Source: Shigella phage SP18. Taken from it: a stretch of 64,000 nt of DNA. Positions 8,184-52,014 of this stretch are shown here, piece by piece. The position numbers and the translations under genes were made by a program. Positions within the stretch are counted from its first letter, which is position 1. Each line of letters begins with the position of its first letter. A model generated the notes under the pieces. It was not told the DNA's origin. It saw only the letters and a list, made by a program, of their open reading frames with translations, and searched no databases. The DNA lies in the sequence record GQ981382; one strand, written 5' to 3'.

Positions 8184-8860
8184 TATATTACCTTATTAAT
8201 TTTATCAAAAAGTTCATCGAGTGTGCCATCGTTTTTAATAACAATGTCACTAGCTAGTGGTGGAAGTCCAGCTTCCGTAATGTGTGTATCAGTAGAATGA
8301 TTTGCTTCATCGCGTTCTACAAAGATTATTGTAGCACCCATCGCCCGAAGCGAATCAAGTTCGTTCTTTTGGCGAACATCTGGGACAACGTAATATTTAT
8401 ATCCAGAATAGAGGTTGTCAAGATAGTTGCATGCAAAAGTTTTAATCCAAAACATGCTGTCGAACTCTGTACAAACGATGTCAGTTCCAAGGGTCTGCAT
8501 GAAACGTCTAACTGTCCAGGGCTCAACATTATTTAGTGTGTGAAATTCAATAATTTTACGAACCATATCTGGATTCGGAAGGTCAAGATTGTATTGTTGT
8601 TTCAACCATTCAAGAGCATCAACCAGAAGAATATAAGCTTCGGTGTTGTTCATTATCAAGGTTTTTTCACGGTCATAACCTTGTCCATCAAAATTTTCCA
8701 GGGTCAAATTGTGTGGCAGGTCTTGACGAATCCACGCGTTATAAAGCGCTTCTTTAATCGGACCTGCAAGCTGCCACTTTGTTCCATTTTGACTAATAAC
8801 ATAATCAGCAGTCGTATCTTTACCACTGCGTTTTTTACCCACAATCGCAATTAATTTCAT
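8183..8860 (-). CDS. 1: deoxynucleoside monophosphate kinase (gene 1)
   Basis: P-loop GKKRSGKDT and strong similarity to recalled T4 gp1 along its length. Confidence 0.9.
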
Positions 8861-9456
8861 ACGTTTCTCATAGATGGATGCATTGACTTAGACCTGATTT
8901 CCTGTTGCATTGCTGCATTACTATCAATCTGTGGTCTACCTTCTATTATTATACCATCAATTTCTACAGCAAAAGACTTAAAGTTGAAAGTTGCTGTTGC
9001 GTTGATAGCGGGGTCAGAATCTTCTTTATATGAATACTGAATCTCTGACAGGTCGGACGGCCATGCTCCATAGTAATGGATTGACATGACAATTTTGTCC
9101 TTGTTGTTATCTAAGATATGAAGCGTAACCGCTTCAGGACGACCCTTTGGATGCCATGCTTTTGATTCGTGTGTGATGTAGTTGTTGAGCGAGAGCATCC
9201 ATTTATAGATATCAAGCCATGCTCTTAAGTCTTTGTCGCACAGAAAGTTAACAATCAACGGGTCGAATTCTATTGTACTACCAGGAAGACTGGAGCGATT
9301 TATACCTTGTGTTCCCCCAGGGACATCCGTCACAGGAATGTGAACTCCTGGAAGGGTAACGTCTTGAACGTTGAGTTTAAAGGTCTGTGTGAGGTTTGAA
9401 TCGCTTACCTCTAATATAAAGTTAGTCGTGTTAGTTTGATTATATAAACCTGACAT
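8857..9456 (-). CDS. 3: gp3 tail completion / sheath stabiliser protein (assigned by position and size)
   Basis: ATG at 9454-9456 with AAGGTG RBS; 199 aa between genes 1 and 2 as in T4; the longer track ORF is rejected. Confidence 0.55.
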   Translation of the reverse strand: MSGLYNQTNTTNFILEVSDSNLTQTFKLNVQDVTLPGVHIPVTDVPGGTQGINRSSLPGSTIEFDPLIVNFLCDKDLRAWLDIYKWMLSLNNYITHESKAWHPKGRPEAVTLHILDNNKDKIVMSIHYYGAWPSDLSEIQYSYKEDSDPAINATATFNFKSFAVEIDGIIIEGRPQIDSNAAMQQEIRSKSMHPSMRNV

Positions 9457-9467
9457 AGTGCACCTTG

Positions 9468-9506
9468 TTTGCTTTAAAACAATCAGTGTTATAATGGTTC
9501 TAGACC
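9468..9506 (+). promoter_or_regulatory. MotA-box middle promoter (TTTGCTTTA-N13-TATAAT) with conserved start region GGTTCTAGACC, oriented antisense to genes 2 and 4
   Basis: TGCTT to TATAAT spacing 20 nt; identical -10/+1 block to copies at 44487 and 50159. Confidence 0.55.
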
Positions 9507-9541
9507 TTTTGTCCTTACCAATAACACTGACCGATAATAGA

Positions 9542-10375
9542 TTATGAATTTCTCCAAACTTTTTGTGCAGAGAATTTTTTGCCTTTGCTGTAAAAAGCTT
9601 GCAACGGAAGCATAACAACGTTTGCCCAGTCACTGGGCTTGATTTCAGTGATAGTACCTTTTATATTGCCAGGTATATATGCTTTAATCATCTGGTCAGC
9701 CCCTTTAAATCCCTTCACCTTTGACCAATCAATTTTCAGATGAGTCTTGTTCGTAATCGTAGGAGTATTAGCATATTGCTTAAGAAGTTCCTCAAGGAAC
9801 TCTTGACGCGCCTTCGGCGGAATATAGTGCAAGTTCAAACCATACATCAAATTGTGCTTACCTAGCCCAAGATAAATGATTAACGGATATTTGTCCCAGT
9901 ACGGAAGAGTATCCTTATGCTTTGCATCATAGATATAAGCATAAATTTTACCCGGTTGAGGTTTAGCCGTTACGTGGCCACGAACTGATTTCTTAATTGT
10001 CTCAGCGAACCATCTGGCAGATTTGGTGTTGCTTGCTGCACCTTCGTTAGCAATCTTATCTCTTATGCTCTTTCTAAAGCTATTCACCATTATCAGCTGG
10101 CGTTCAGCCTTCGTAAGTTTACCAGCAGGTTTCTTTTTGAGTTTGGATACTTTATAAGCAGTCTGAATTCTCGAATTGTATCTTGACATGCTTTTGGTAA
10201 AGGTCGAATAGTTGATTCCTTTCTCTTCAGCAAACTTCTTCGAAGTCATTCCCTTTTCTTTTGCTGTATAAAATTCAACCCCTATCTCAACCCATTGTTG
10301 TTCGGATTTACTGGGTTTTGGACCTGGTTTATCTGCAGATTCATTGATAAATGTAAAAATACTCATCCTTTCCAT
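9542..10375 (-). CDS. 2: gp2 DNA end protector protein (assigned by position and size)
   Basis: 277 aa, basic; lies between 3 and 4 as in T4. Confidence 0.55.
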
Positions 10376-10812
10376 CCTAATTTTTTCAGTGAGTTTTCAG
10401 TGATTATCCTGAACGTTATACCCATCTTATCCGCGGTAGCTTGTGCAGCTTTCCATTTGTCAGAGTTAACGCTCCAGGTGTACATTTCGTTAATAAATCT
10501 CTTTTTACTCGCAGTGGTATTATTGGCCGGTTTGGTTGGGGGTCTTGTTTCTTTTAATGGCTTAACTTCGAAAAAGAACTGCTGTCCTGTATCGAACTTA
10601 ACCCAGAAATCCATATAATATCTGCGCTTTTTACCTTCAGCATTGCAGAAGTATGGAATAATCACAGTCTCAGAGCCCCATTGAACAACGTTCGGATGGT
10701 TGTCGAGCCATCTCATCAACCAAGCCTCCCAGCTTGACCGGTATTGTATTTTCTTCCAGTCGCCCTTATATTTTTCTATGTTGGTGGGCTTGAATTTCCC
10801 GGAGTATGCCAT
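10363..10812 (-). CDS. 4: gp4 head completion protein
   Basis: 149 aa with GGAGG RBS and TATAAATA late promoter on minus strand 24 nt upstream; divergent from gene 53 as in T4. Confidence 0.65.
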
Positions 10813-10840
10813 ATAGCCTCCTAATAAATATTGATATACT

Positions 10841-10852
10841 TATTTATAAATG
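10841..10852. promoter_or_regulatory. palindromic late-promoter element between divergent genes 4 and 53 (TATAAATA on minus strand; TATAAATG on plus)
   Basis: Sequence TATTTATAAATG; exact 8/8 T4 late consensus on minus strand 24 nt from gp4 ATG. Confidence 0.6.
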
Positions 10853-10860
10853 GAGGCTTT

Positions 10861-11463
10861 ATGCTTTTTTCATTTTTTAACCCTATTGATTATGATGCGA
10901 AAACAATCAGAAAAAACTCGGCATCATTGACGAAAGAAGATGTCTTAAGCATTCCAATGACTGACATCTTCAGAAACTACCGCGCTTATTTCGATAAGGT
11001 CGCTGCTAATTATACACCCAAAACCTATTACATTGCAGGAGCTCCGAGACCCGAAGAATTGGCATATCAGCTCTATGGTAACACACAACTCTATTGGGTT
11101 CTCCTGATGATTAATGACATCTATGACCCTTATTATGGTTGGCTTGGTTCTCAGGAATCATCCTATCAGGCATCTATTCAGAAATATTCGAATGTCGGTG
11201 GTAACCAGGTCCTTTATCATGTGAATGAAGATGGTGAGAAGTTCTGGAACCTTGTATCTTATCCTGATAATCCATACACCTGGTACGATAAAGGTGATAA
11301 GAACAAATTATACCCGCAGTATGAAGGTCCATTAGCTGCAGTGGATATCTATGAAGATGCTATCCGTAAAAATGAATACAAACGCGAAATAAAAATAATT
11401 GACCCGGAAGACATTGAGTCATTTATTTCCGCGCTTATCCGTGAAATGGAGAAGGCTTTATGA
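10861..11463 (+). CDS. 53: gp53 baseplate wedge subunit
   Basis: ATG at 10861 with GGAGG RBS; 200 aa; immediately precedes gene 5 with ATGA overlap. Confidence 0.7.
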   Translation: MLFSFFNPIDYDAKTIRKNSASLTKEDVLSIPMTDIFRNYRAYFDKVAANYTPKTYYIAGAPRPEELAYQLYGNTQLYWVLLMINDIYDPYYGWLGSQESSYQASIQKYSNVGGNQVLYHVNEDGEKFWNLVSYPDNPYTWYDKGDKNKLYPQYEGPLAAVDIYEDAIRKNEYKREIKIIDPEDIESFISALIREMEKAL

Positions 11464-13247
11464 TTAATATGTCAGATAATGTAAGTTGGTTCGTCGGGGT
11501 TGTCGAAGACCGAATGGACCCACTTCAGCAAGGTCGTGTGCGTGTTCGTGTATGGGGTATGCATCCATATGAGAAAGCACAAGGGCCTGTTAAAGGTATC
11601 AGAACCGAAGACCTTCCTTGGATGTCTGTATTGATGCCGACATCATCTGCATCAGTTTCTGGGATTCAAACTGCCATGACTGGTATGGTCCCAGGTACTC
11701 AAGTATATGGTCACTTTTTAGACAAGTGGAAGCTCAACGGTCTTGTTATTGGTACGTATGGTTCAGCCTCAAGACAAAAGGCAAATCCTAACGAAGGCTT
11801 CTCTGACCCTACAGGACAATACCCGCTTTATGTTGGTAATGATGCTGCAGCGCTTAACCGTGGCGGTGAAGTCGGTTATGATGCAACTTCGAACGTAATT
11901 CAGGATGCGAACCTTGACCTTGGTATTAACCCAGATGGTCTTGATTTGAGCCAGGTTAAGCCTGATGATAATCCTAATTTCACAATTGAAAATATGCTCC
12001 ACCGTGATGAAGGTCTTCGACTGAAGGTATATTGGGACACCGAAGGTTATCCTACTATAGGCATAGGACACTTAATTGCACCACAACCTATTAGAGATAT
12101 GAATCAGATAAACAAAATATTATCTAATCAAATAGGCCGTGAAGTTAAAGGTAACCCTGGTGCAATATCAATGGACGAGGCTTCTAAGTTATTCCAAGAA
12201 GACCTTAAAAAAGTCCAAAACGATATAGGTAGGCATAGTGTTGTGGGTCCGGTTTATAATAAAGAAAACCGTTCGAGACAAATGGCTCTTGAAAACATGG
12301 CTTTCCAAATGGGATTAGGTGGATTGGCTAAATTCCGTGGAATGCTTAGCGCAATGTTAGTAGGTGATTATAAAAAAGCATTTGAGGAAGCTCGTAATTC
12401 AGTATGGTTTAACCAAACTAAAGGACGTGCATCAAGGGTATCAATGATTATCCTTACCGGTAATATGGAATCATATGGTATTATGGCTCCTAAAGAAAGG
12501 TCATTTAAAGGGCGTTCATATAGGATGATTCAAACCTTTGCAGCCCCTGCAAATTCTGACCCAGCCGACCCATGGACTCCAGAAGATACACGGATTCTAT
12601 TTAAAGAGCCAGAATCAAGTTACAAGGGCGAATATCCTTACGTGCAGACAATGCAAACTGAAGGCGGTCATATTCAGGAATTCGATAACACCCCTGGACA
12701 AGAACGTTATCGACTGATTCACCCAACCGGTTCCTACGAGGAAGTTGCACCAGATGGTCGTAAGACTTCGAAGACAGTGGCCGATGGTTATTATATGACC
12801 CAGGGTGATTCGAGTACTTACGTTGGTGGTAATAATAAAGTCAACGTTGGCGGTGATGAAACCTATTATAATATGGCTAATGTTCGTCGTCAGACCGATG
12901 GAAACGAAAGCATTCATATTCGTGGGAATGAAACCAAAACTGTAGAAGGTAATGGAACTTTGCTTGTTAAAGGAAATGTTAAAATAGTTATTATGGGTAC
13001 TGCTGATATAACTGTTGAACAAGAAGCATATATTACGGTTGAAAAAGATACAACAGTTAATGTCAACCAGAATGCAGATATAAGTGTTAAACAAAAGGCC
13101 ACAATCAATGCTCAAAATATGGATGTAAATGTCGAACAAGATTTAAATTTTGCAGCGACGAACATTAATTTAAACGCATCAAATACTGTGCATATGGATG
13201 GTGGTTCATTAGCTAAAGTATCTGGTGGCAACGTACAGGTCGGTTAA
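11460..13247 (+). CDS. 5: gp5 baseplate hub subunit and tail lysozyme (cell-puncturing device)
   Basis: N-terminal NVSWFVGVVED...; internal T4-lysozyme-like domain (HRDEGLRLKVYWDTEGYPTIGIGH); C-terminal beta-helix repeats. Confidence 0.9.
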   Translation: MINMSDNVSWFVGVVEDRMDPLQQGRVRVRVWGMHPYEKAQGPVKGIRTEDLPWMSVLMPTSSASVSGIQTAMTGMVPGTQVYGHFLDKWKLNGLVIGTYGSASRQKANPNEGFSDPTGQYPLYVGNDAAALNRGGEVGYDATSNVIQDANLDLGINPDGLDLSQVKPDDNPNFTIENMLHRDEGLRLKVYWDTEGYPTIGIGHLIAPQPIRDMNQINKILSNQIGREVKGNPGAISMDEASKLFQEDLKKVQNDIGRHSVVGPVYNKENRSRQMALENMAFQMGLGGLAKFRGMLSAMLVGDYKKAFEEARNSVWFNQTKGRASRVSMIILTGNMESYGIMAPKERSFKGRSYRMIQTFAAPANSDPADPWTPEDTRILFKEPESSYKGEYPYVQTMQTEGGHIQEFDNTPGQERYRLIHPTGSYEEVAPDGRKTSKTVADGYYMTQGDSSTYVGGNNKVNVGGDETYYNMANVRRQTDGNESIHIRGNETKTVEGNGTLLVKGNVKIVIMGTADITVEQEAYITVEKDTTVNVNQNADISVKQKATINAQNMDVNVEQDLNFAATNINLNASNTVHMDGGSLAKVSGGNVQVG

Positions 13248-15313: not shown

Positions 15314-17272
15314 ATGGCTACTCCTACGAATTACCAATTAACAAGAACCGTTAACGCAATCCCAAAAGTATTTGTGGGAGCTACGTTTGAAGAAATTAAA
15401 AAGAACATCATTGACTGGTTATCAAGCCAGGATGAATTTAAGGATTATGATTTCGTAGGTTCGCGAATGAATATCCTGATTGATATGCTTGCATACAATA
15501 CATTGTATATGCAACAGTTTGCTAACACGGCAGTTTACGAATCATTTATCGGAACTGCAAACCTAAGGTCTTCGGTTGTTCAAGCTGCACAGGATAATGG
15601 TTATCTTCCATCTTCGCGTTCGGCCGCAAAGACTTCGGTTATGCTGACATGTTCTCACGCTCTCCAACCATCGAATATTGAAATCCCGCGTGGGACTAAG
15701 TTCCTGGCTTATGCTCGTGATACATCAGCTGACCCTTATATGTTTGTCACAACGGATAATGTAATCGCGGTAAAAGACATTAACAACCAATATCTGCCGA
15801 TTGTATCCCTTGCACAAGGTCGTATTATTCGTACTGAACTTTTGTATGACCCGAAACAACCTATTCTTATTCGTGACCCGGATATTGACCGAAAAGAAGT
15901 TAAGCTTTTTGTGAACGGTATCGAGTGGACTGACTGGACAAACAAATCAATGGTTCATGCTGGCTCAACGTCCACCATTTTCTATATGCGTGAAACTGTT
16001 GATGGTAATACCGAATTCTTCTTCGGTGAAGGTGAATCGACCAAATCTGTTGCCGGTGGCGTATTGGAAGCCAACTATATTGGTGGATTGAAACCCGTAC
16101 AGGATTCGACAATTGTTATCGAATATCTTCGCACATCAGGGGCCGATGCAAATGGTGCAGTTGATTTCAGCTATGCAGACTCCTTGACTTATATCACTGT
16201 TGACAAGATTACAGAAAACTACAATAACGATAAAGATTACGTTGGAGCTGATGGCGGTGGTGACCCGGAAGATATTGAACGAATCCGTGAACTGGCTGTA
16301 GTTAAACGTGAAGCGCAGATGCGTGCTGTCACCGGGACCGATTATGATACATTCGTATCAGAAAGATTCGGCTCAATCGTACAAGCCGTACAGACGTTTA
16401 CAGACCCAAATAAACCTGGATATGCGTTTATATCAGTTAAACCTAAATCGGGCTTGTATCTCACCGCAGTGCAGCGTGAGGACATCAAAAACTACCTTAG
16501 TGAGTTCAACGTATCGACAATTACACCATCAGTTATTTCTCCTGATTATTTGTTCCTTAAACACAATATCAAAGTGTCTTATGCGCTGAATAAATTACAG
16601 GAATCTGAACAGTGGTTGCAAGCACAAATCATTAACCAGATTGACCGCTATTATATTGATGAAGTTGAATTGTTTAACCACAGTTTTGCTAAATCGAAAC
16701 TGCTCACTTATGTAGATAATACCGACCATAGTATTTTGGGTTCGTCTGCAACGGTGACAATGGTTCGCGAGGTCTTGAACTTCTTTAAGACTCCAGAATC
16801 CGGCATTAAATATTATAATCAATATACTAATAGGTCGGTGGAATCAAGCGAATTTGAATTCGTTCCAACAAACCAAAGCGATACCGTTACCTCATATAAC
16901 GTCCGTATTGTAGCGACTGACCGCAACTCATCTGGTGATGGTAAAATGGTCATTGGTCCGTTCCGTCCAGGTGATGTTCAGCTTAATGCGAATATTCAAC
17001 CTTACACAGGTAATGACTTTAATAAGATGGTTGCACCAGCTGACCAGACTCAATACTTTGTAATCGGTGAAATCGATTATTGGTCTGATTATATCTTCTG
17101 GGACATTGCCGCGATTGGTTTGACTTCGGACCGTTTTGAAGTGCAATCAATCGAACTGTATGCGGGTCCAGACCAGGACAACATCTACACAAAAGACGGT
17201 TCGCTTATCGTATTCGAAAATGACCTTCGTCCACAGTATACGACTATTAATTTAGAACCAATTACATTATAA
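15314..17272 (+). CDS. 6: gp6 baseplate wedge subunit
   Basis: N-terminus MATPTNYQLTRTVNAIP... aligns with recalled T4 gp6; 652 aa. Confidence 0.9.
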   Translation: MATPTNYQLTRTVNAIPKVFVGATFEEIKKNIIDWLSSQDEFKDYDFVGSRMNILIDMLAYNTLYMQQFANTAVYESFIGTANLRSSVVQAAQDNGYLPSSRSAAKTSVMLTCSHALQPSNIEIPRGTKFLAYARDTSADPYMFVTTDNVIAVKDINNQYLPIVSLAQGRIIRTELLYDPKQPILIRDPDIDRKEVKLFVNGIEWTDWTNKSMVHAGSTSTIFYMRETVDGNTEFFFGEGESTKSVAGGVLEANYIGGLKPVQDSTIVIEYLRTSGADANGAVDFSYADSLTYITVDKITENYNNDKDYVGADGGGDPEDIERIRELAVVKREAQMRAVTGTDYDTFVSERFGSIVQAVQTFTDPNKPGYAFISVKPKSGLYLTAVQREDIKNYLSEFNVSTITPSVISPDYLFLKHNIKVSYALNKLQESEQWLQAQIINQIDRYYIDEVELFNHSFAKSKLLTYVDNTDHSILGSSATVTMVREVLNFFKTPESGIKYYNQYTNRSVESSEFEFVPTNQSDTVTSYNVRIVATDRNSSGDGKMVIGPFRPGDVQLNANIQPYTGNDFNKMVAPADQTQYFVIGEIDYWSDYIFWDIAAIGLTSDRFEVQSIELYAGPDQDNIYTKDGSLIVFENDLRPQYTTINLEPITL

Positions 17273-35565: not shown

Positions 35566-35601
35566 TTATCATCGCTTAGAAAGAATTAATTAGCAGCAAA
35601 A

Positions 35602-35652
35602 CCGTAGAACCATTATACAGTGCTATAAATAAAAGCATAATCGGTTCTACGG
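35602..35652 (-). promoter_or_regulatory. MotA-box middle promoter (ATGCTTTTA-N12-TATAAT-GGTTCTACGG) on minus strand between genes 18 and 19; -10 lies between 10-bp inverted repeats CCGTAGAACC/GGTTCTACGG
   Basis: Fourth copy of the conserved promoter block; inverted repeat at 35602-35611 and 35643-35652. Confidence 0.5.
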
Positions 35653-43394: not shown

Positions 43395-44400
43395 ATTCAC
43401 TAACTAATGCAATCCAAACATGTCTTAATGTTTCTCTTACATTTGCGATGAGTTGCTTTTTAACTTCAACAGGATTTTCCGTCAGAGACAATTCAAGACC
43501 TTCGCGCCCCGCTTCTTCCAGAATATCTTGGACTGTTAACCCCATTACCTTTCCAAAATCCTTCGGTGTTACTTCCCCAATTTTACTGATAACATTGTTG
43601 ATACGGTTAACAGTCACATAATCAGTGAAATTCCACAGTAAATCCATATCATTTTGGCTCAGAACCACTGCAGCCTTAATAGGCTTATCAGACTTTTTCT
43701 TTTCACTGAATTTAGAGTTCTTACATTTAATCGCCACACGCTCGCCGTTAGGTAACCAGGCAGGAACATCAGGTTTTAATACAAATCCTTCAGCAGTGAA
43801 TACTTTACCTTCCACCTTTGCATCAAAATCAGTGGTATTTGCTGTAGTCAATCCTGCGTTATCCACTGTAAAATTGTAATCAGGGACCACAGAATCCAGG
43901 TCATTAGGTAGCTTAATTAATTCTTCAAAACTACCTGTAGCCAGGCGCGGGGCAACTTTAAACTTATGAATAATACAAAAGGCTTCCATAAGTGTGTCAG
44001 TCAGGACGGATTCAGAGCCATCTTCCTTAGTAACGCGGATATCAAACACATAGAAATCTTTATCGCCGTAATTCACATTCTTCTGAATACCTGTACCAGC
44101 AAACTCACCATAAATCTGATATGCCTGGTAATTAATATCCTGCAAAAGTTTCTGCACAGATTTAATAGAATCTACGTAGTTCTTTAATACAATTTCATAA
44201 CCATAGAAATCTTCTGCAGGTAGGATAGGTCCAGTGCGTTTCGCGCATGTCACATTGTCTTGTTCAATAATTAATGAAAAATTGGTACCATGAATTTTCT
44301 CGCGGGCTACCCATTCACCGCTGGTGAAGCCTTGTAGGCGAATTTTTTCAATGAATTTGTTGTTATAGTGATTTTCAAGGCTGTTATATTTCTTAAACAT
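43393..44400 (-). CDS. rnlB: RNA ligase 2 (RnlB)
   Basis: [13 protein letters not shown]...[16 protein letters not shown]... matches recalled T4 Rnl2 including KxHG motif. Confidence 0.9.
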
Positions 44401-44486
44401 ATTCTCTCACTTTTGATGTTATAAATATCATTATAAATTAGACCCACTATACTTTCTTTCTCTGAAAGGAATTAATAGTTGCAAAG

Positions 44487-44525
44487 GGTCTAGAACCATT
44501 ATACCGCATTTTTATTTGAAGCAAA
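44487..44525 (-). promoter_or_regulatory. MotA-box middle promoter (TTTGCTTCA-N13-TATAAT-GGTTCTAGACC) upstream of rnlB
   Basis: Canonical box/-10 spacing; conserved start block. Confidence 0.6.
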
Positions 44526-44530
44526 AAGGG

Positions 44531-44794
44531 TCAGAATTTTACATACAGCATTGGCTTGGATTCTTGCCAATCATAATTCCAGGTAAAAGATGTAAATTTT
44601 TCTGCTCGCAGAAATTCAGATATCTTTGTGCGGTTTCCTTCTTCATACTCTTTTTCAGAAACTGCCATATTAACAGCATCTTTGCCATTTTCAGCGGCGG
44701 CAATAGCCACTTTGCGAAATATAGAAATAAAGTCATTTGCAACTTTATCTTGTGACTCTTTGGCTATTTGGCGTAGTTCTTCTGCGAATGTCAT
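44531..44794 (-). CDS. hypothetical protein
   Basis: ORF track 87 aa between rnlB and hoc. Confidence 0.5.
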   Translation of the reverse strand: MTFAEELRQIAKESQDKVANDFISIFRKVAIAAAENGKDAVNMAVSEKEYEEGNRTKISEFLRAEKFTSFTWNYDWQESKPMLYVKF

Positions 44795-49707: not shown

Positions 49708-50141
49708 TACTTGCCTGCCTCGAATTGTCTTATTTCTAACATATGTTTAAGTGCGAAACTTCGTGACTTAACACCATCTAATGCAGCGCTACAGAAGTCC
49801 TGGAGTAGTGCCCAATACTGAATTGAAGTATCAATCTTCAGTATGTTTGAATCTGCGGCCATGACTGTTTTCAATTCTGACTTCTCGTATACATCCATGC
49901 ATACTTCTTCCCCTGGGTCACCCCTTCCTGTATAATGGTCTAGCCGTTTTTTCAGTGCAGTTTTCTTCTGAATCTCAAGACGCATTATTTCTTTCTTGCA
50001 GTTGGTATACAATCTCAACCATTTGCTATGCAACAAAACGTTGTTTTGTGTTTCATATTGAAGTTGCGTACCATCAATTTTTAAATCTGCATCCAACTCA
50101 TCCTGAAAGACTTCTAACTTATATTCAATCTCTGTTTTCAT
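49707..50141 (-). CDS. uvsY: UvsY recombination mediator
   Basis: ATG at 50139-50141; ...LQYETQNNVLLHSKWL...YWALLQDFCSAALDGVKSRSFALKHMLEIRQFEAGK matches recalled T4 UvsY; MotA-type promoter upstream. Confidence 0.9.
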   Translation of the reverse strand: MKTEIEYKLEVFQDELDADLKIDGTQLQYETQNNVLLHSKWLRLYTNCKKEIMRLEIQKKTALKKRLDHYTGRGDPGEEVCMDVYEKSELKTVMAADSNILKIDTSIQYWALLQDFCSAALDGVKSRSFALKHMLEIRQFEAGK

Positions 50142-50158
50142 AATGTATCCAATGTAAG

Positions 50159-50196
50159 GGTCTAGAACCATTATACAGCCATAAAATTAAAGCATT
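50159..50196 (-). promoter_or_regulatory. MotA-box middle promoter (AATGCTTTA-N12-TATAAT-GGTTCTAGACC) upstream of uvsY
   Basis: T4 uvsY is a classical MotA-dependent middle gene; motif 18 nt upstream of ATG. Confidence 0.65.
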
Positions 50197-51261: not shown

Positions 51262-52014
51262 ATGGCCAATATCGTAAGATGCGAAATGCCAGACGGAGTT
51301 CATCGTTTCAAACCGTTTACAGTCGCTGATTACCGTGATTTACTGCTTGTGCGAAACGACATGAACAACAAACCCGTCGAAGAACAAAAACAATTATTAG
51401 ACGAACTGTTGGAAGATTATTTTGGAGAGTATCCGAAAGCATGGAGGCCATACATATTCTTGAAGGTATTCACTTCCTCTATCGGTAAGACAAAAGTCCC
51501 GGTAGCGTTCGAATGTCAAAAATGTAAAAAGACAAAGCAGACTTTGTTTAATATGAGTCAAGGGCCATTGATAAATCCAACAATGGAAACTGCGGGGATA
51601 AAAATACAATTTAAGTTCCCCGAAGTGGAATATAAAGATAAGTCGGAGCTTGTTCTAAACACCATCCAGACTGTCGAAGACTCAGAACAAAAGTACAATT
51701 GGGAAGACCTTCCTGAAGAAACGAAGATGCAGGTTATTGATGCAATTGATATAGAGAGTCTCGAAGAGCTCCTTAAGAAAATGCATTCAGTTTATATTCC
51801 ATTTACATATGGTTGCTGCGAAAAACACAAAACCGAATATACAGACTTGATTGATGTCTTTAAGCTTATCCTTAACCCGGATGAAGTCTTTGTATTTTAT
51901 CAAATTAACCACTTGCTGGTAAAGAACCAATATACGCTCGATAGCATCATGCACATGATTCCCATCGAACGAGGTATTGCTTTATCGTTAGTTGAGAAGG
52001 ACTTGAAGAAATGA
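51262..52014 (+). CDS. 51: gp51 baseplate hub assembly catalyst
   Basis: 250 aa, divergent from gene 26 with shared palindromic late promoter. Confidence 0.75.

What the first reader, a model, noticed from the sequence alone, without database searches (positions are those of the whole stretch)
9468..9506. MotA-box middle promoter oriented antisense to late genes 2 and 4
The element TTTGCTTTA-N13-TATAAT-GGTTCTAGACC sits on the plus strand in the gene 3 / gene 2 spacer, pointing toward higher coordinates, where the next 1.3 kb encodes gp2 and gp4 on the opposite strand. It shares an identical 17-nt -10/start block with the rnlB and uvsY promoters. It would generate either antisense RNA across genes 2 and 4 or a long leader reading into 53-5-6.
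Basis: partly seen in the sequence, partly recalled or inferred. Interest (0 to 1): 0.6.

Follow-up and report, generated by a model that had tools for sequence, protein, structure and literature searches.

The report
Conserved antisense MotA-type middle promoter
A short intergenic sequence in a T4-like phage is almost certainly a real, evolutionarily conserved 'middle' promoter that fires backwards into two late genes; it makes no protein, it is a close sibling of the promoter that serves as replication origin oriF in T4, and it is missing from the curated list of mapped T4 promoters.

Summary
The 17-mer TATAATGGTTCTAGACC recurs exactly upstream of rnlB and uvsY (chance about 0.1). The window is a VR20-like Gaprivervirus whose closest relative encodes MotA and AsiA.

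In a 12-sequence alignment of this spacer from 8 lineages (seven named Tevenvirinae genera incl. T4, plus PspYZU05), the only invariant columns are GCT of the MotA box and TATAATGG, at fixed spacing and orientation. That is a promoter signature, not an RNA-structure signature.

The core after the -10 co-varies within genomes with the uvsY (oriF) promoter (3 of 720 permutations). It belongs to a subclass of 8 MotA promoters in VR20. Four sit correctly upstream of middle genes. Four are orphans pointing antisense: srd/modA, 3/2, 18/19 and the oriG homolog in gene 34.

No conserved ORF, terminator or Rfam family lies downstream. A leader reaching 53-5-6 is unlikely.

The T4 ortholog (predicted start 76000, +) is absent from Hinton's table of about 58 mapped middle promoters. 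The RB69 ortholog was only computationally predicted, in a 2006 supplement.

Best reading: an active MotA-dependent promoter making a non-coding antisense RNA, most likely acting in cis like oriG. There is no transcript evidence yet.

The parts
9468..9476 (+). MotA box TTTGCTTTA; GCTT lies at -31 to -28 relative to the predicted start
   Evidence: G-C-T is invariant in the 12-sequence, 8-lineage alignment.
9477..9489 (+). 13-nt spacer between the MotA box and the -10. The last three bases (TGT) form an extended -10 'TGn'.
   Evidence: Spacing of 12-13 nt is kept in all lineages.
9490..9495 (+). -10 hexamer TATAAT
   Evidence: Invariant, together with the following GG, in all 12 aligned sequences.
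9496..9506 (+). Discriminator plus start-region core GGTTCTAGACC. The predicted start is A9502, 7 nt after the -10, by analogy with the mapped T4 PuvsY start at 115371.
   Evidence: T4 PuvsY start falls on the equivalent A. The core is shared exactly with the rnlB and uvsY copies and co-varies with PuvsY within genomes.
9502..10860 (+). Predicted non-coding transcript, antisense to gene 2 and (if it is not terminated) gene 4. Its real 3' end is unknown.
   Evidence: No ORF is conserved among the window, JS10 and T4. No Rfam family matches. The only terminator-like site (9624-9638) is not above chance and is not seen in T4. The RNA is C-over-G rich.
9480..9533 (-). Overlapping feature on the other strand: a strong hairpin in the gene 2-to-3 intercistronic late mRNA. 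It pairs the complement of the -10 region with the ACCAATAACACTGA block.
   Evidence: -23.9 kcal/mol, z = -3.63, 0 of 200 shuffles fold as well. T4 has a different hairpin that lies outside the promoter, so the hairpin does not explain promoter conservation.
44487..44525 (-). Sister copy upstream of rnlB: TTTGCTTCA-N13-TATAATGGTTCTAGACC, in sense orientation
   Evidence: It sits in a ~130-nt spacer that T4 lacks.
50159..50196 (-). Sister copy upstream of uvsY: AATGCTTTA-N12-TATAATGGTTCTAGACC, the ortholog of T4 PuvsY/oriF
35601..35640 (-). A further family member in the window: TTATGCTTTT-N13-TATAATGGTTCTACGG in the gene 18/19 spacer, predicted start A35605, firing antisense into the 3' end of gene 18
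   Evidence: Present in VR20 (99380, -) but absent from the T4 18/19 spacer.

Best explanation
The element is a genuine MotA/AsiA-dependent (sigma-appropriation) middle promoter. At middle times, sigma70-RNA polymerase remodelled by AsiA is recruited by MotA bound to TTTGCTTTA. It opens the DNA at TGT-TATAAT-GG and starts at about A9502 on the + strand, running head-on into gene 2. The RNA is non-coding. The promoter belongs to a multi-copy subclass with a shared, near-optimal core (TATAAT-GGTTCT-A+1-G+2). That subclass includes the uvsY/oriF promoter, the rnlB promoter and the oriG homolog in gene 34. I commit to the view that its selected role is exerted in cis and not through a protein or a long mRNA. 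Most likely the transcript forms an R-loop or primer-type structure or otherwise opens the DNA, as the antisense promoter P34i does at oriG. Antisense interference with genes 2/4 is the close second.

Shown: motif, geometry, copy number, conservation, paralogy with PuvsY, and absence of a conserved ORF.

Inferred: activity in infection (about 0.75), the start site, MotA dependence, and the cis-acting or origin-like role (about 0.3 on its own).

The confidence given (0.5) is for 'active MotA-type promoter making a non-coding antisense RNA with a cis-acting role'.
For: The motif and spacing fit the T4 consensus. The closest relative, VR20, encodes motA and asiA. In a 12-sequence alignment from 8 lineages (seven named genera: Gapriver-, Dhaka-, Winkler-, Mosig-, Karam-, Tequatro- and the ZZ1 group, plus PspYZU05) with 44% mean column identity, the only invariant columns are GCT of the MotA box and TATAATGG (sequences). 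The element is absent from the sampled lineages outside Tevenvirinae: Krisch-, Slopek-, Nanhu- and Bragavirus. Only the first of these belongs to a group (RB49-like) reported to lack MotA. Two of the three exact copies sit in the correct orientation upstream of rnlB and uvsY, whose T4 counterparts are mapped middle promoters. GCT(T/A)-N14-16-TATAATG(G/A) occurs 11 times in VR20 against 0.57 in shuffles, and 8 of those carry the GGTTCT/GGTC core. The core co-varies with PuvsY within genomes: 10.8/14 within versus 8.4/14 across, and 3 of 720 permutations reach the observed sum. T4 oriF and oriG each consist of a MotA promoter plus a downstream unwinding element, R-loop formation there does not depend on specific sequences, and the oriG primer RNA runs antisense to late gene 34. 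Downstream +1..+50 GC is 0.32, comparable to T4 PuvsY at 0.30. No ORF, terminator or Rfam family is conserved downstream. The RB69 ortholog was independently predicted as a middle promoter, Pm:79256 (+).
Against: No transcript 5' end or MotA dependence could be checked. The T4 dRNA-seq start-site table is not held. The T4 ortholog (predicted start 76000, +) is not among about 58 experimentally identified T4 middle promoters, even though it matches the consensus, so it may have been tested and found silent or simply ignored. [quoted passage not shown] The shared core is not origin-exclusive: 4 of the 8 VR20 members are ordinary sense promoters. The downstream region is only modestly AT-rich, roughly the 10th-20th percentile of 50-nt windows. 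The element is missing in Jiaodavirus (KPV15 group, genes 2 and 3 overlap) and in Erwinia phage Cronus, so it is dispensable in some Tevenvirinae.
Confidence: 0.5

Rival explanations
1. The promoter is active, but its role lies in RNA or in transcriptional interference. The middle-time antisense RNA pairs with or collides with transcription of genes 4-2-3. This would suppress leaky or premature expression, or insulate gene 3 from gene 2 read-through. It would be a defined source of the 'anti-late RNA' described for T4 in the 1970s (recalled from my own knowledge, not verified here).
For: Three orphans share one architecture. Each sits just after the stop codon of the upstream gene of a co-directional pair and points back into it: 3/2, srd/modA in T4, VR20 and RB69, and 18/19. 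The transcript is fully complementary to the 3' part of gene 2. No ORF is present.
Against: Middle promoters are shut off as late transcription begins, so overlap in time with late mRNA is limited. The srd/modA sibling faces early and middle genes, not late genes. No conserved RNA structure or terminator defines a stable antisense RNA.
Confidence: 0.25
2. The sequence is a promoter-like cassette spread and homogenised by recombination or short-patch gene conversion from PuvsY. It would be a selfish or neutral repeat with little or no function at this site.
For: Copies co-vary within genomes. The 17-nt identity is sharply bounded. A lineage-specific extra copy was gained upstream of rnlB, in a spacer T4 lacks, and another in the 18/19 spacer. 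Phage 31 has an annotated repeat family with copies at the gene 2/3 spacer and at the uvsY position that share a 47-nt identical block. The spacer is a hot spot for homing-endonuclease insertions.
Against: Position, orientation and both promoter boxes persist across 8 lineages while the rest of the spacer is unalignable. This points to purifying selection at this site and not to repeated re-seeding.
Confidence: 0.12
3. Conservation reflects the minus strand: an intercistronic hairpin or signal in the late gene 2-to-3 mRNA (stability, processing, gene 3 translation). On this view the plus-strand promoter resemblance is incidental.
For: The minus-strand spacer RNA folds strongly in the window, with z = -3.63. 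Every lineage has some hairpin in the spacer. The window stem includes the complement of the -10.
Against: The hairpins differ in sequence, position and architecture. In T4 the hairpin lies entirely outside the MotA box-to-start segment. The invariant columns are exactly GCT and TATAATGG at promoter spacing, with no covarying pairs. The same block is shared with PuvsY and PrnlB, which have no such hairpin.
Confidence: 0.06
4. The promoter drives a long leader that reads through 1.36 kb of antisense sequence to give middle-mode expression of baseplate genes 53-5-6.
For: The orientation is right. No strong intrinsic terminator was found between 9502 and 10860.
Against: The RNA would be 1359 nt of untranslated sequence, with C>G in 66% of windows and several C-rich/G-poor stretches, and so probably a good Rho substrate (inference). 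Genes 53-5-6 are late structural genes. The sibling orphans (srd/modA, 18/19, 34i) have no comparable downstream target.
Confidence: 0.04

Closest known systems
T4 P34i / oriG (ori34)
   Same: A MotA-box middle promoter that points antisense to a late structural gene and has no protein product of its own. It has a related core (T4 TATAATGGTCCCAGAG, VR20 TATAATGGTCCCAGAGC), and the VR20 homolog is retained.
   Different: P34i lies inside the gene 34 coding sequence, whereas this element is intergenic. Origin activity (plasmid replication, 2D gels, R-loop) is demonstrated for oriG. Nothing of that kind is known for the 3/2 site.
T4 PuvsY / oriF (ori uvsY)
   Same: Paralogous promoter module with MotA box, 12-13 nt spacing, TGn-TATAAT and a shared post -10 core. 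The core is identical over 17 nt in this phage, T4 shares TCTAAGTCC, and the match is near-identical in Karam- and Mosigvirus. The core co-varies within genomes.
   Different: PuvsY also serves as the mRNA promoter for uvsY, which starts 18 nt downstream of the block here. The 3/2 copy has no gene in sense orientation for 1.36 kb.
RB69 predicted middle promoters Pm:79256 (+) and Pm:12081 (+) (Nolan et al. 2006, PMC1524935, Additional File 4)
   Same: They are orthologous sites. Pm:79256 lies in the RB69 gene 3/2 spacer (79251-79352) and Pm:12081 lies in the srd/modA spacer, both on the strand antisense to the flanking genes.
   Different: These are HMM predictions listed only in a supplement. 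The paper's text never uses the word 'antisense' and reports no experimental mapping.
Experimentally mapped T4 middle promoters (Hinton 2010, PMC2988021, Table 1)
   Same: Same promoter class. The sister promoters PrnlB and PuvsY, and the nearby P1 and P57A, are in the table.
   Different: No entry lies near 76,000 or near 11,897 on the plus strand. The T4 orthologs of both conserved orphans are therefore unlisted.
Repeated promoter cassettes of T4-type phages: 31repeatA/44RRrepeatA annotations, and PeSL 'promoter-early stem-loop' cassettes (the latter recalled from my own knowledge, Arbiol et al. 2010, not checked here)
   Same: Short regulatory repeats present in several copies per genome. 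In phage 31 one copy is in the gene 2/3 spacer and another is at the uvsY position. Proteus phage Pm5461 shows the same pairing with a different AT-rich cassette.
   Different: Those repeats lack a GCTT MotA box. In Pm5461 the cassette points toward gene 3, not away from it.

Membership tests
T4-type MotA/AsiA-dependent middle promoter | sigma70-type -10 element (TAnnnT, consensus TATAAT) | tested here: met
   TATAAT at 9490-9495, preceded by TGT, an extended -10. Invariant in 12 sequences from 8 lineages.
T4-type MotA/AsiA-dependent middle promoter | MotA box (a/t)(a/t)(a/t)TGCTTtA centred near -30, 11-13 nt upstream of the -10 | tested here: met
   TTTGCTTTA at 9468-9476 with a 13-nt spacer. 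Consensus as quoted in PMC1524935. GCT is invariant across lineages.
T4-type MotA/AsiA-dependent middle promoter | No sigma70 -35 hexamer at the canonical distance | tested here: met
   The sigma70 -35/-10 scan of 9300-11600 does not list this site. The bases 17 nt upstream of the -10 (GTTTGC) match TTGACA at 1 of 6 positions (read).
T4-type MotA/AsiA-dependent middle promoter | The phage encodes MotA and AsiA | tested here: inconclusive
   The window does not cover that part of the genome. The closest relative, VR20 (97.3% identity over the locus), has both motA and asiA annotated.
T4-type MotA/AsiA-dependent middle promoter | MotA/AsiA-dependent initiation shown in vivo or in vitro | not testable with these tools
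   The T4 dRNA-seq start-site table (GSE255091) is not held as text. Stranded RNA-seq of wild type versus motA-amber exists (PMC6024815) but cannot be reanalysed here.
T4 R-loop replication origin (oriF/oriG type) | MotA-dependent middle promoter as the core of the minimal origin | tested here: met
   Met at the sequence level only (see rows above). The definition of the minimal origin is taken from PMC3016281.
T4 R-loop replication origin (oriF/oriG type) | [quoted passage not shown] | tested here: inconclusive
   +1..+50 GC is 0.32, against a window mean of 0.41 (sd 0.07). About 8% of 50-nt windows are at or below 0.30 and about 20% at or below 0.34. T4 PuvsY is 0.30, the T4 3/2 site 0.34 and T4 P34i 0.40. 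No superhelical-destabilisation calculation was possible.
T4 R-loop replication origin (oriF/oriG type) | Persistent R-loop, autonomous plasmid replication during infection, or a nascent-DNA peak at the site | not testable with these tools
   The annotated T4 oriE (79355) lies 3.4 kb downstream of the T4 ortholog. Reviews report no middle promoter near oriE. The array papers are not held.
Described non-coding RNA family (Rfam 15) | Covariance-model match on either strand | tested here: not met
   No match with E-value up to 1 in 9000-11200.

The most novel reading that the evidence does not exclude
The gene 3/2 element and its srd/modA sibling are unrecognised oriF-type R-loop origins, conserved across Tevenvirinae. 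In T4 they sit at about 76.0 kb and 11.9 kb. Both fire toward the annotated oriE (79.4 kb) and oriA (16.8 kb), which lie 3-5 kb downstream. R-loop origins first replicate unidirectionally, in the direction of transcription. These promoters could therefore be the MotA-dependent initiators behind replication activity historically assigned, at low resolution, to oriE and oriA.
Probability: 0.13. Interest if true: 0.8.

Novelty: new member of a known kind. Interest (0 to 1): 0.5.

Why it matters
T4 is the reference system for phage transcription and replication. Its middle-promoter list and origin map are treated as essentially complete. This work shows a consensus-quality MotA promoter that is conserved in position and orientation across eight lineages (seven named genera plus PspYZU05), that makes no protein, and that is a close paralog of the oriF promoter. 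It is missing from the curated T4 list, as is a second orphan in the srd/modA spacer.

If these promoters are active, they give a molecular source for antisense transcription of late genes. They would also contradict the statement that no middle-mode promoter lies near oriE. The mechanism of oriE and oriA could then be tested with data that already exist (dRNA-seq GSE255091 and motA-amber RNA-seq).

For annotation of T4-like genomes, the work also defines a recognisable promoter subclass: TGn-TATAAT-GGTTCT-A-G.

Tried and rejected
1. 'The shared core marks replication origins only.' Rejected. A genome-wide census in VR20 found 8 members, and 4 of them are ordinary sense promoters for nrdC.6, rnlB, uvsY and cd.3.

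2. 'The exact 17-mer identity proves recent duplication or strong concerted evolution.' Weakened. GGTTCTAG-CC is close to the ancestral PuvsY consensus; for example, KPV15 PuvsY has TATAATGGTTCTAGTCC. What remains is a statistical within-genome excess.

3. A defined small RNA ending at the hairpin 9624-9638. Rejected. Terminator-like sites are not above the shuffle expectation, and T4 has no equivalent.

4. A small protein encoded on the plus strand. Rejected. No ORF is conserved in position or sequence among the window, JS10 and T4.

5. A known RNA family. No Rfam match.

6. The exact 17-mer as a mobile element found elsewhere. A scan of IMG/VR found it three times per genome only in VR20, VR25 and VR26, plus four unrelated chance hits.

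7. A promoter for the homing endonuclease that relatives carry in this spacer. Rejected. That gene is on the opposite strand and lies between the gene 2 stop and the element.

8. Literature searches for direct transcript evidence, for 'anti-late' RNA and for the T4 sequence strings found nothing usable. Miller 2003, Brister and Nossal 2007, Brister 2008 and Vaiskunaite 1999 are not held.

9. The gene 18/19 orphan as a conserved feature. It is absent from T4.

Full report
**Observation.** The window is a T4 relative of the genus Gaprivervirus, 97.3% identical to phage VR20 over the locus. The motif reads exactly as described. TTTGCTTTA lies at 9468-9476. A 13-nt spacer follows, ending in TGT. 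TATAAT lies at 9490-9495 and GGTTCTAGACC at 9496-9506, all on the + strand. The motif sits in the 85-nt spacer between gene 3 (8857-9456, -) and gene 2 (9542-10375, -). Gene 4 (10363-10812, -) and gene 53 (from 10861, +) lie beyond. The 17-mer TATAATGGTTCTAGACC occurs exactly three times. The other two copies are on the minus strand upstream of rnlB (44487-44503) and uvsY (50159-50175), each behind a MotA box at 12-13 nt. Shuffles give 0.11 matches even with three mismatches allowed. The identity is sharply bounded: the flanks are only 27-47% identical. In the whole 170-kb VR20 genome the 11-mer GGTTCTAGACC occurs three times, always in this context. In IMG/VR the exact 17-mer is found three times per genome only in VR20, VR25 and VR26.

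**Is it a promoter?** The geometry fits the published consensus (a/t)(a/t)(a/t)TGCTTtA-N11-13-TAtaaT. There is no -35 hexamer. VR20 encodes motA and asiA.

The decisive evidence is comparative. I collected the gene 2/gene 3 spacer from many T4-like phages. A MotA box, a 12-13 nt spacer and TATAATGG are present at the same place and in the same antisense orientation in eight lineages:
- Gaprivervirus
- Dhakavirus (JS10, IME281)
- Winklervirus (CHI14)
- Mosigvirus (RB69, mar005P1)
- Karamvirus (myPSH1140)
- Tequatrovirus (T4: ATAATGCTTTA-N12-TATAATGGGTCTAAGTCC, TATAAT at 75988-75993)
- the Acinetobacter ZZ1 group
- PspYZU05, where the MotA box is weaker

In a 12-sequence alignment with 44% mean column identity, the only invariant columns are G-C-T of the MotA box and T-A-T-A-A-T-G-G. 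Lineages outside Tevenvirinae (Krisch-, Slopek-, Nanhu- and Bragavirus) have no such element. Of these, the RB49-like Krischvirus group is reported to lack MotA. The element is also absent where genes 2 and 3 overlap (KPV15 group) and where an HNH endonuclease occupies the spacer (Cronus). It is therefore conserved but not universal.

**A rival source of conservation.** The minus-strand spacer RNA of the window folds into a strong hairpin (-23.9 kcal/mol, z = -3.63). It pairs the complement of the -10 region with the ACCAATAACACTGA block. Other lineages also have hairpins, but their sequence and placement differ. In T4 the hairpin (CTTCCATTC...GAATGGAAG) lies wholly outside the MotA box-to-start segment. 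The hairpin is therefore a separate feature of the late gene 2-to-3 mRNA, and it cannot account for invariant GCT and TATAATGG at promoter spacing.

**Family relations.** The core after the -10 is shared with the uvsY promoter in a lineage-specific way.

| Lineage | 3/2 element | PuvsY |
|---|---|---|
| Gaprivervirus | GGTTCTAGACC | GGTTCTAGACC |
| T4 | GGGTCTAAGTCC | GAATCTAAGTCC |
| Karamvirus | GGTTTTGAGTTC | GGTTTTGAGTTC |
| Mosigvirus | GGTTTTAGGTC | GGTTTTAGGTC |

Over six genomes, the within-genome identity of the 14 nt after TATAAT averages 10.8, against 8.4 across genomes. Only 3 of 720 partner permutations reach the observed sum. In Aeromonas phage 31, the record's own annotation marks copies of one repeat family (31repeatA). 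One copy is in the gene 2/3 spacer and another sits between gene 25 and the uvsY-position ORF. The two share a 47-nt identical block.

T4-type genomes hold three copies of TATAATGNNTCTAAGTCC. These are PuvsY, the 3/2 site, and a site in the srd/modA spacer (TATAAT from 11885, +) that points back into modA. VR20 and RB69 have the srd/modA counterpart.

A census of VR20 found 11 sites of the form GCT(T/A)-N14-16-TATAATG(G/A), against 0.57 in shuffles. Eight of them carry the GGTTCT/GGTC core.
- Four lie in sense orientation upstream of middle genes: nrdC.6, rnlB, uvsY and cd.3.
- Four are orphans pointing antisense: srd/modA, 3/2, the gene 18/19 spacer (window 35601-35640, -; absent in T4), and the homolog of P34i/oriG inside gene 34.

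The core is thus a mark of a promoter subclass, not of origins as such. It reads like an optimised core promoter: extended -10, consensus -10, GG discriminator, A at +1 and G at +2. That reading rests on general knowledge of sigma70 promoters and was not tested here.

**What the transcript could do.** By analogy with the mapped T4 PuvsY start (115371, the A seven nt after TATAAT), the start here is A9502. Downstream there is no ORF conserved among the window, JS10 and T4. No Rfam family matches. Terminator-like sites are not above chance, and none is shared with T4. Reaching gene 53 would need 1359 nt of untranslated RNA. That RNA has C>G in 66% of 80-nt windows, with several C-rich/G-poor stretches. 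I infer Rho termination well before gene 53, so the 'long leader' option is unlikely.

The one experimentally understood antisense orphan of this class is P34i. Together with a downstream unwinding element, it constitutes origin oriG, and its primer RNA runs antisense to gene 34. PuvsY does the same at oriF, and R-loop formation there does not depend on specific sequences. The +1..+50 segment here has GC 0.32, like T4 PuvsY at 0.30, but that is only moderately below the local mean.

I therefore rank a cis-acting, R-loop or origin-like role first among functions, and antisense or collision effects on genes 2/4 a close second. Both are inferences.

**Relation to the literature.** Hinton's 2010 table of nearly 60 identified T4 middle promoters lists P57A (74877), P1 (75393), PrnlB, P24.3, Phoc, PuvsY and P34i. 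It has nothing near 76,000 or 11,897. [quoted passage not shown] The T4 record annotates oriE at 79355 and oriA at 16763. These lie 3.4 and 4.9 kb downstream, in the firing direction, of the two conserved plus-strand orphans.

Nolan et al. (2006) listed HMM-predicted RB69 middle promoters in a supplement. Pm:79256 (+) falls in the RB69 gene 3/2 spacer and Pm:12081 (+) in the srd/modA spacer, but the paper does not discuss them. A 2024-26 preprint reports 150 T4 start sites, 22 of them antisense, from dRNA-seq. Its table is not held.

**Verdict.** The promoter interpretation is well supported computationally but lacks transcript evidence. The site is an orthologous, conserved, non-coding antisense member of the MotA middle-promoter class and a paralog of the oriF promoter. 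It is a new (unlisted) member of a known kind. Its function is open, and it can be tested with existing data.

Noticed in passing
window 35601-35640 (-): A second antisense orphan of the same promoter subclass lies in the gene 18/19 spacer: TTATGCTTTT-N13-TATAATGGTTCTACGG, predicted start A35605, firing into the 3' end of gene 18. It is present in VR20 (99380, -) and absent from the T4 18/19 spacer, which has a GGCCTG...CAGGCC hairpin instead.
   Followed up: partly
T4 AF158101 11885-11902 (+); VR20 11024 (+); RB69 12081-12122 (+); outside the window: There is a conserved orphan MotA promoter in the srd/modA spacer, just after the modA stop and pointing back into modA. T4 reads AATGCTTTA-N12-TATAATGAATCTAAGTCCTTCCA, which is identical to T4 PuvsY over about 21 nt. 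It is not in Hinton's table of mapped T4 middle promoters. It lies 4.9 kb from the annotated oriA, on the side it fires toward.
   Followed up: partly
L001 (VR7) 2040-2696; also VR25, DK-13, PSD2001, RZ, P479, fPSFA, P8; L017; L020 (Erwinia phage Cronus): The gene 2/gene 3 spacer is a recurrent insertion site for homing endonuclease genes. VR7 and VR25 carry a MobB-like gene and Cronus carries an HNH gene. In VR7 the insert sits between the gene 2 stop and the promoter element, on the minus strand, and leaves the element intact.
   Followed up: partly
window 44380-44620 (-): The rnlB copy of the promoter sits in a ~130-nt spacer between 24.2 and rnlB. T4 lacks this spacer (T4 24.2 and rnlB are 9 nt apart) and uses a different mapped PrnlB inside 24.2. 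The cassette was therefore gained at a new site in this lineage. A CTTTC-AGA-GAAAG hairpin follows it.
   Followed up: partly
window 9480-9533 (-): A strong hairpin forms in the intercistronic gene 2-to-3 late mRNA (-23.9 kcal/mol, z = -3.63) and overlaps the plus-strand -10. Winklervirus relatives instead have a CAGGGC-TTCG-GCCCTG tetraloop hairpin next to the gene 3 ribosome-binding site. T4, Mosigvirus and Karamvirus have a CTTCC...GGAAG hairpin downstream of the promoter.
   Followed up: partly
window 9530-9541 (+); JS10, T4 and RB69 equivalents: A short block, GATAATAGA (GAATAGAATTA in Mosigvirus and T4), lies immediately next to the gene 2 stop codon. It is conserved across several genera although the rest of the spacer is not. 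The T4 srd/modA orphan is followed by a similar ATAGATTA before the modA stop. This is unexplained.
   Followed up: no
post -10 cores: Many cores read as a direct repeat of GGTYY separated by 2-3 nt. Examples are GGTCC-TA-GGTC, GGGTC-CAT-GGGTC, GGGTT-TAC-GGGTT and GGTTT-TA-GGTCT. The first GG falls at -6/-5 and the second at +2/+3. No explanation was found.
   Followed up: no
L083 289-359 and L089 11541-11608 (Aeromonas phage 31); L082 and L060 (Proteus phage Pm5461): In two distant genera, the gene 2/3 spacer and the region upstream of the uvsY position carry copies of one lineage-specific repeat. In phage 31 it is 31repeatA, a 47-nt identical block with TATAAT in the loop of an inverted repeat. 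In Pm5461 it is a ~55-nt AT-rich cassette that flanks a terminator-like hairpin and points toward gene 3. The pairing of these two loci therefore outlives the MotA-type sequence itself.
   Followed up: partly
window 9624-9638 (+): A terminator-like hairpin, GCCCAGTCACTGGGC followed by TTGATTT, lies about 125 nt downstream of the predicted start, inside gene 2 (antisense). It is not above the shuffle expectation, and no equivalent appears in the T4 fold.
   Followed up: partly
window 51918-51934 (-) and 49931-49945 (+): These are weak matches to the 17-mer (3 mismatches, or 2 deletions) with no MotA box at the right distance. They are judged to be chance.
   Followed up: yes
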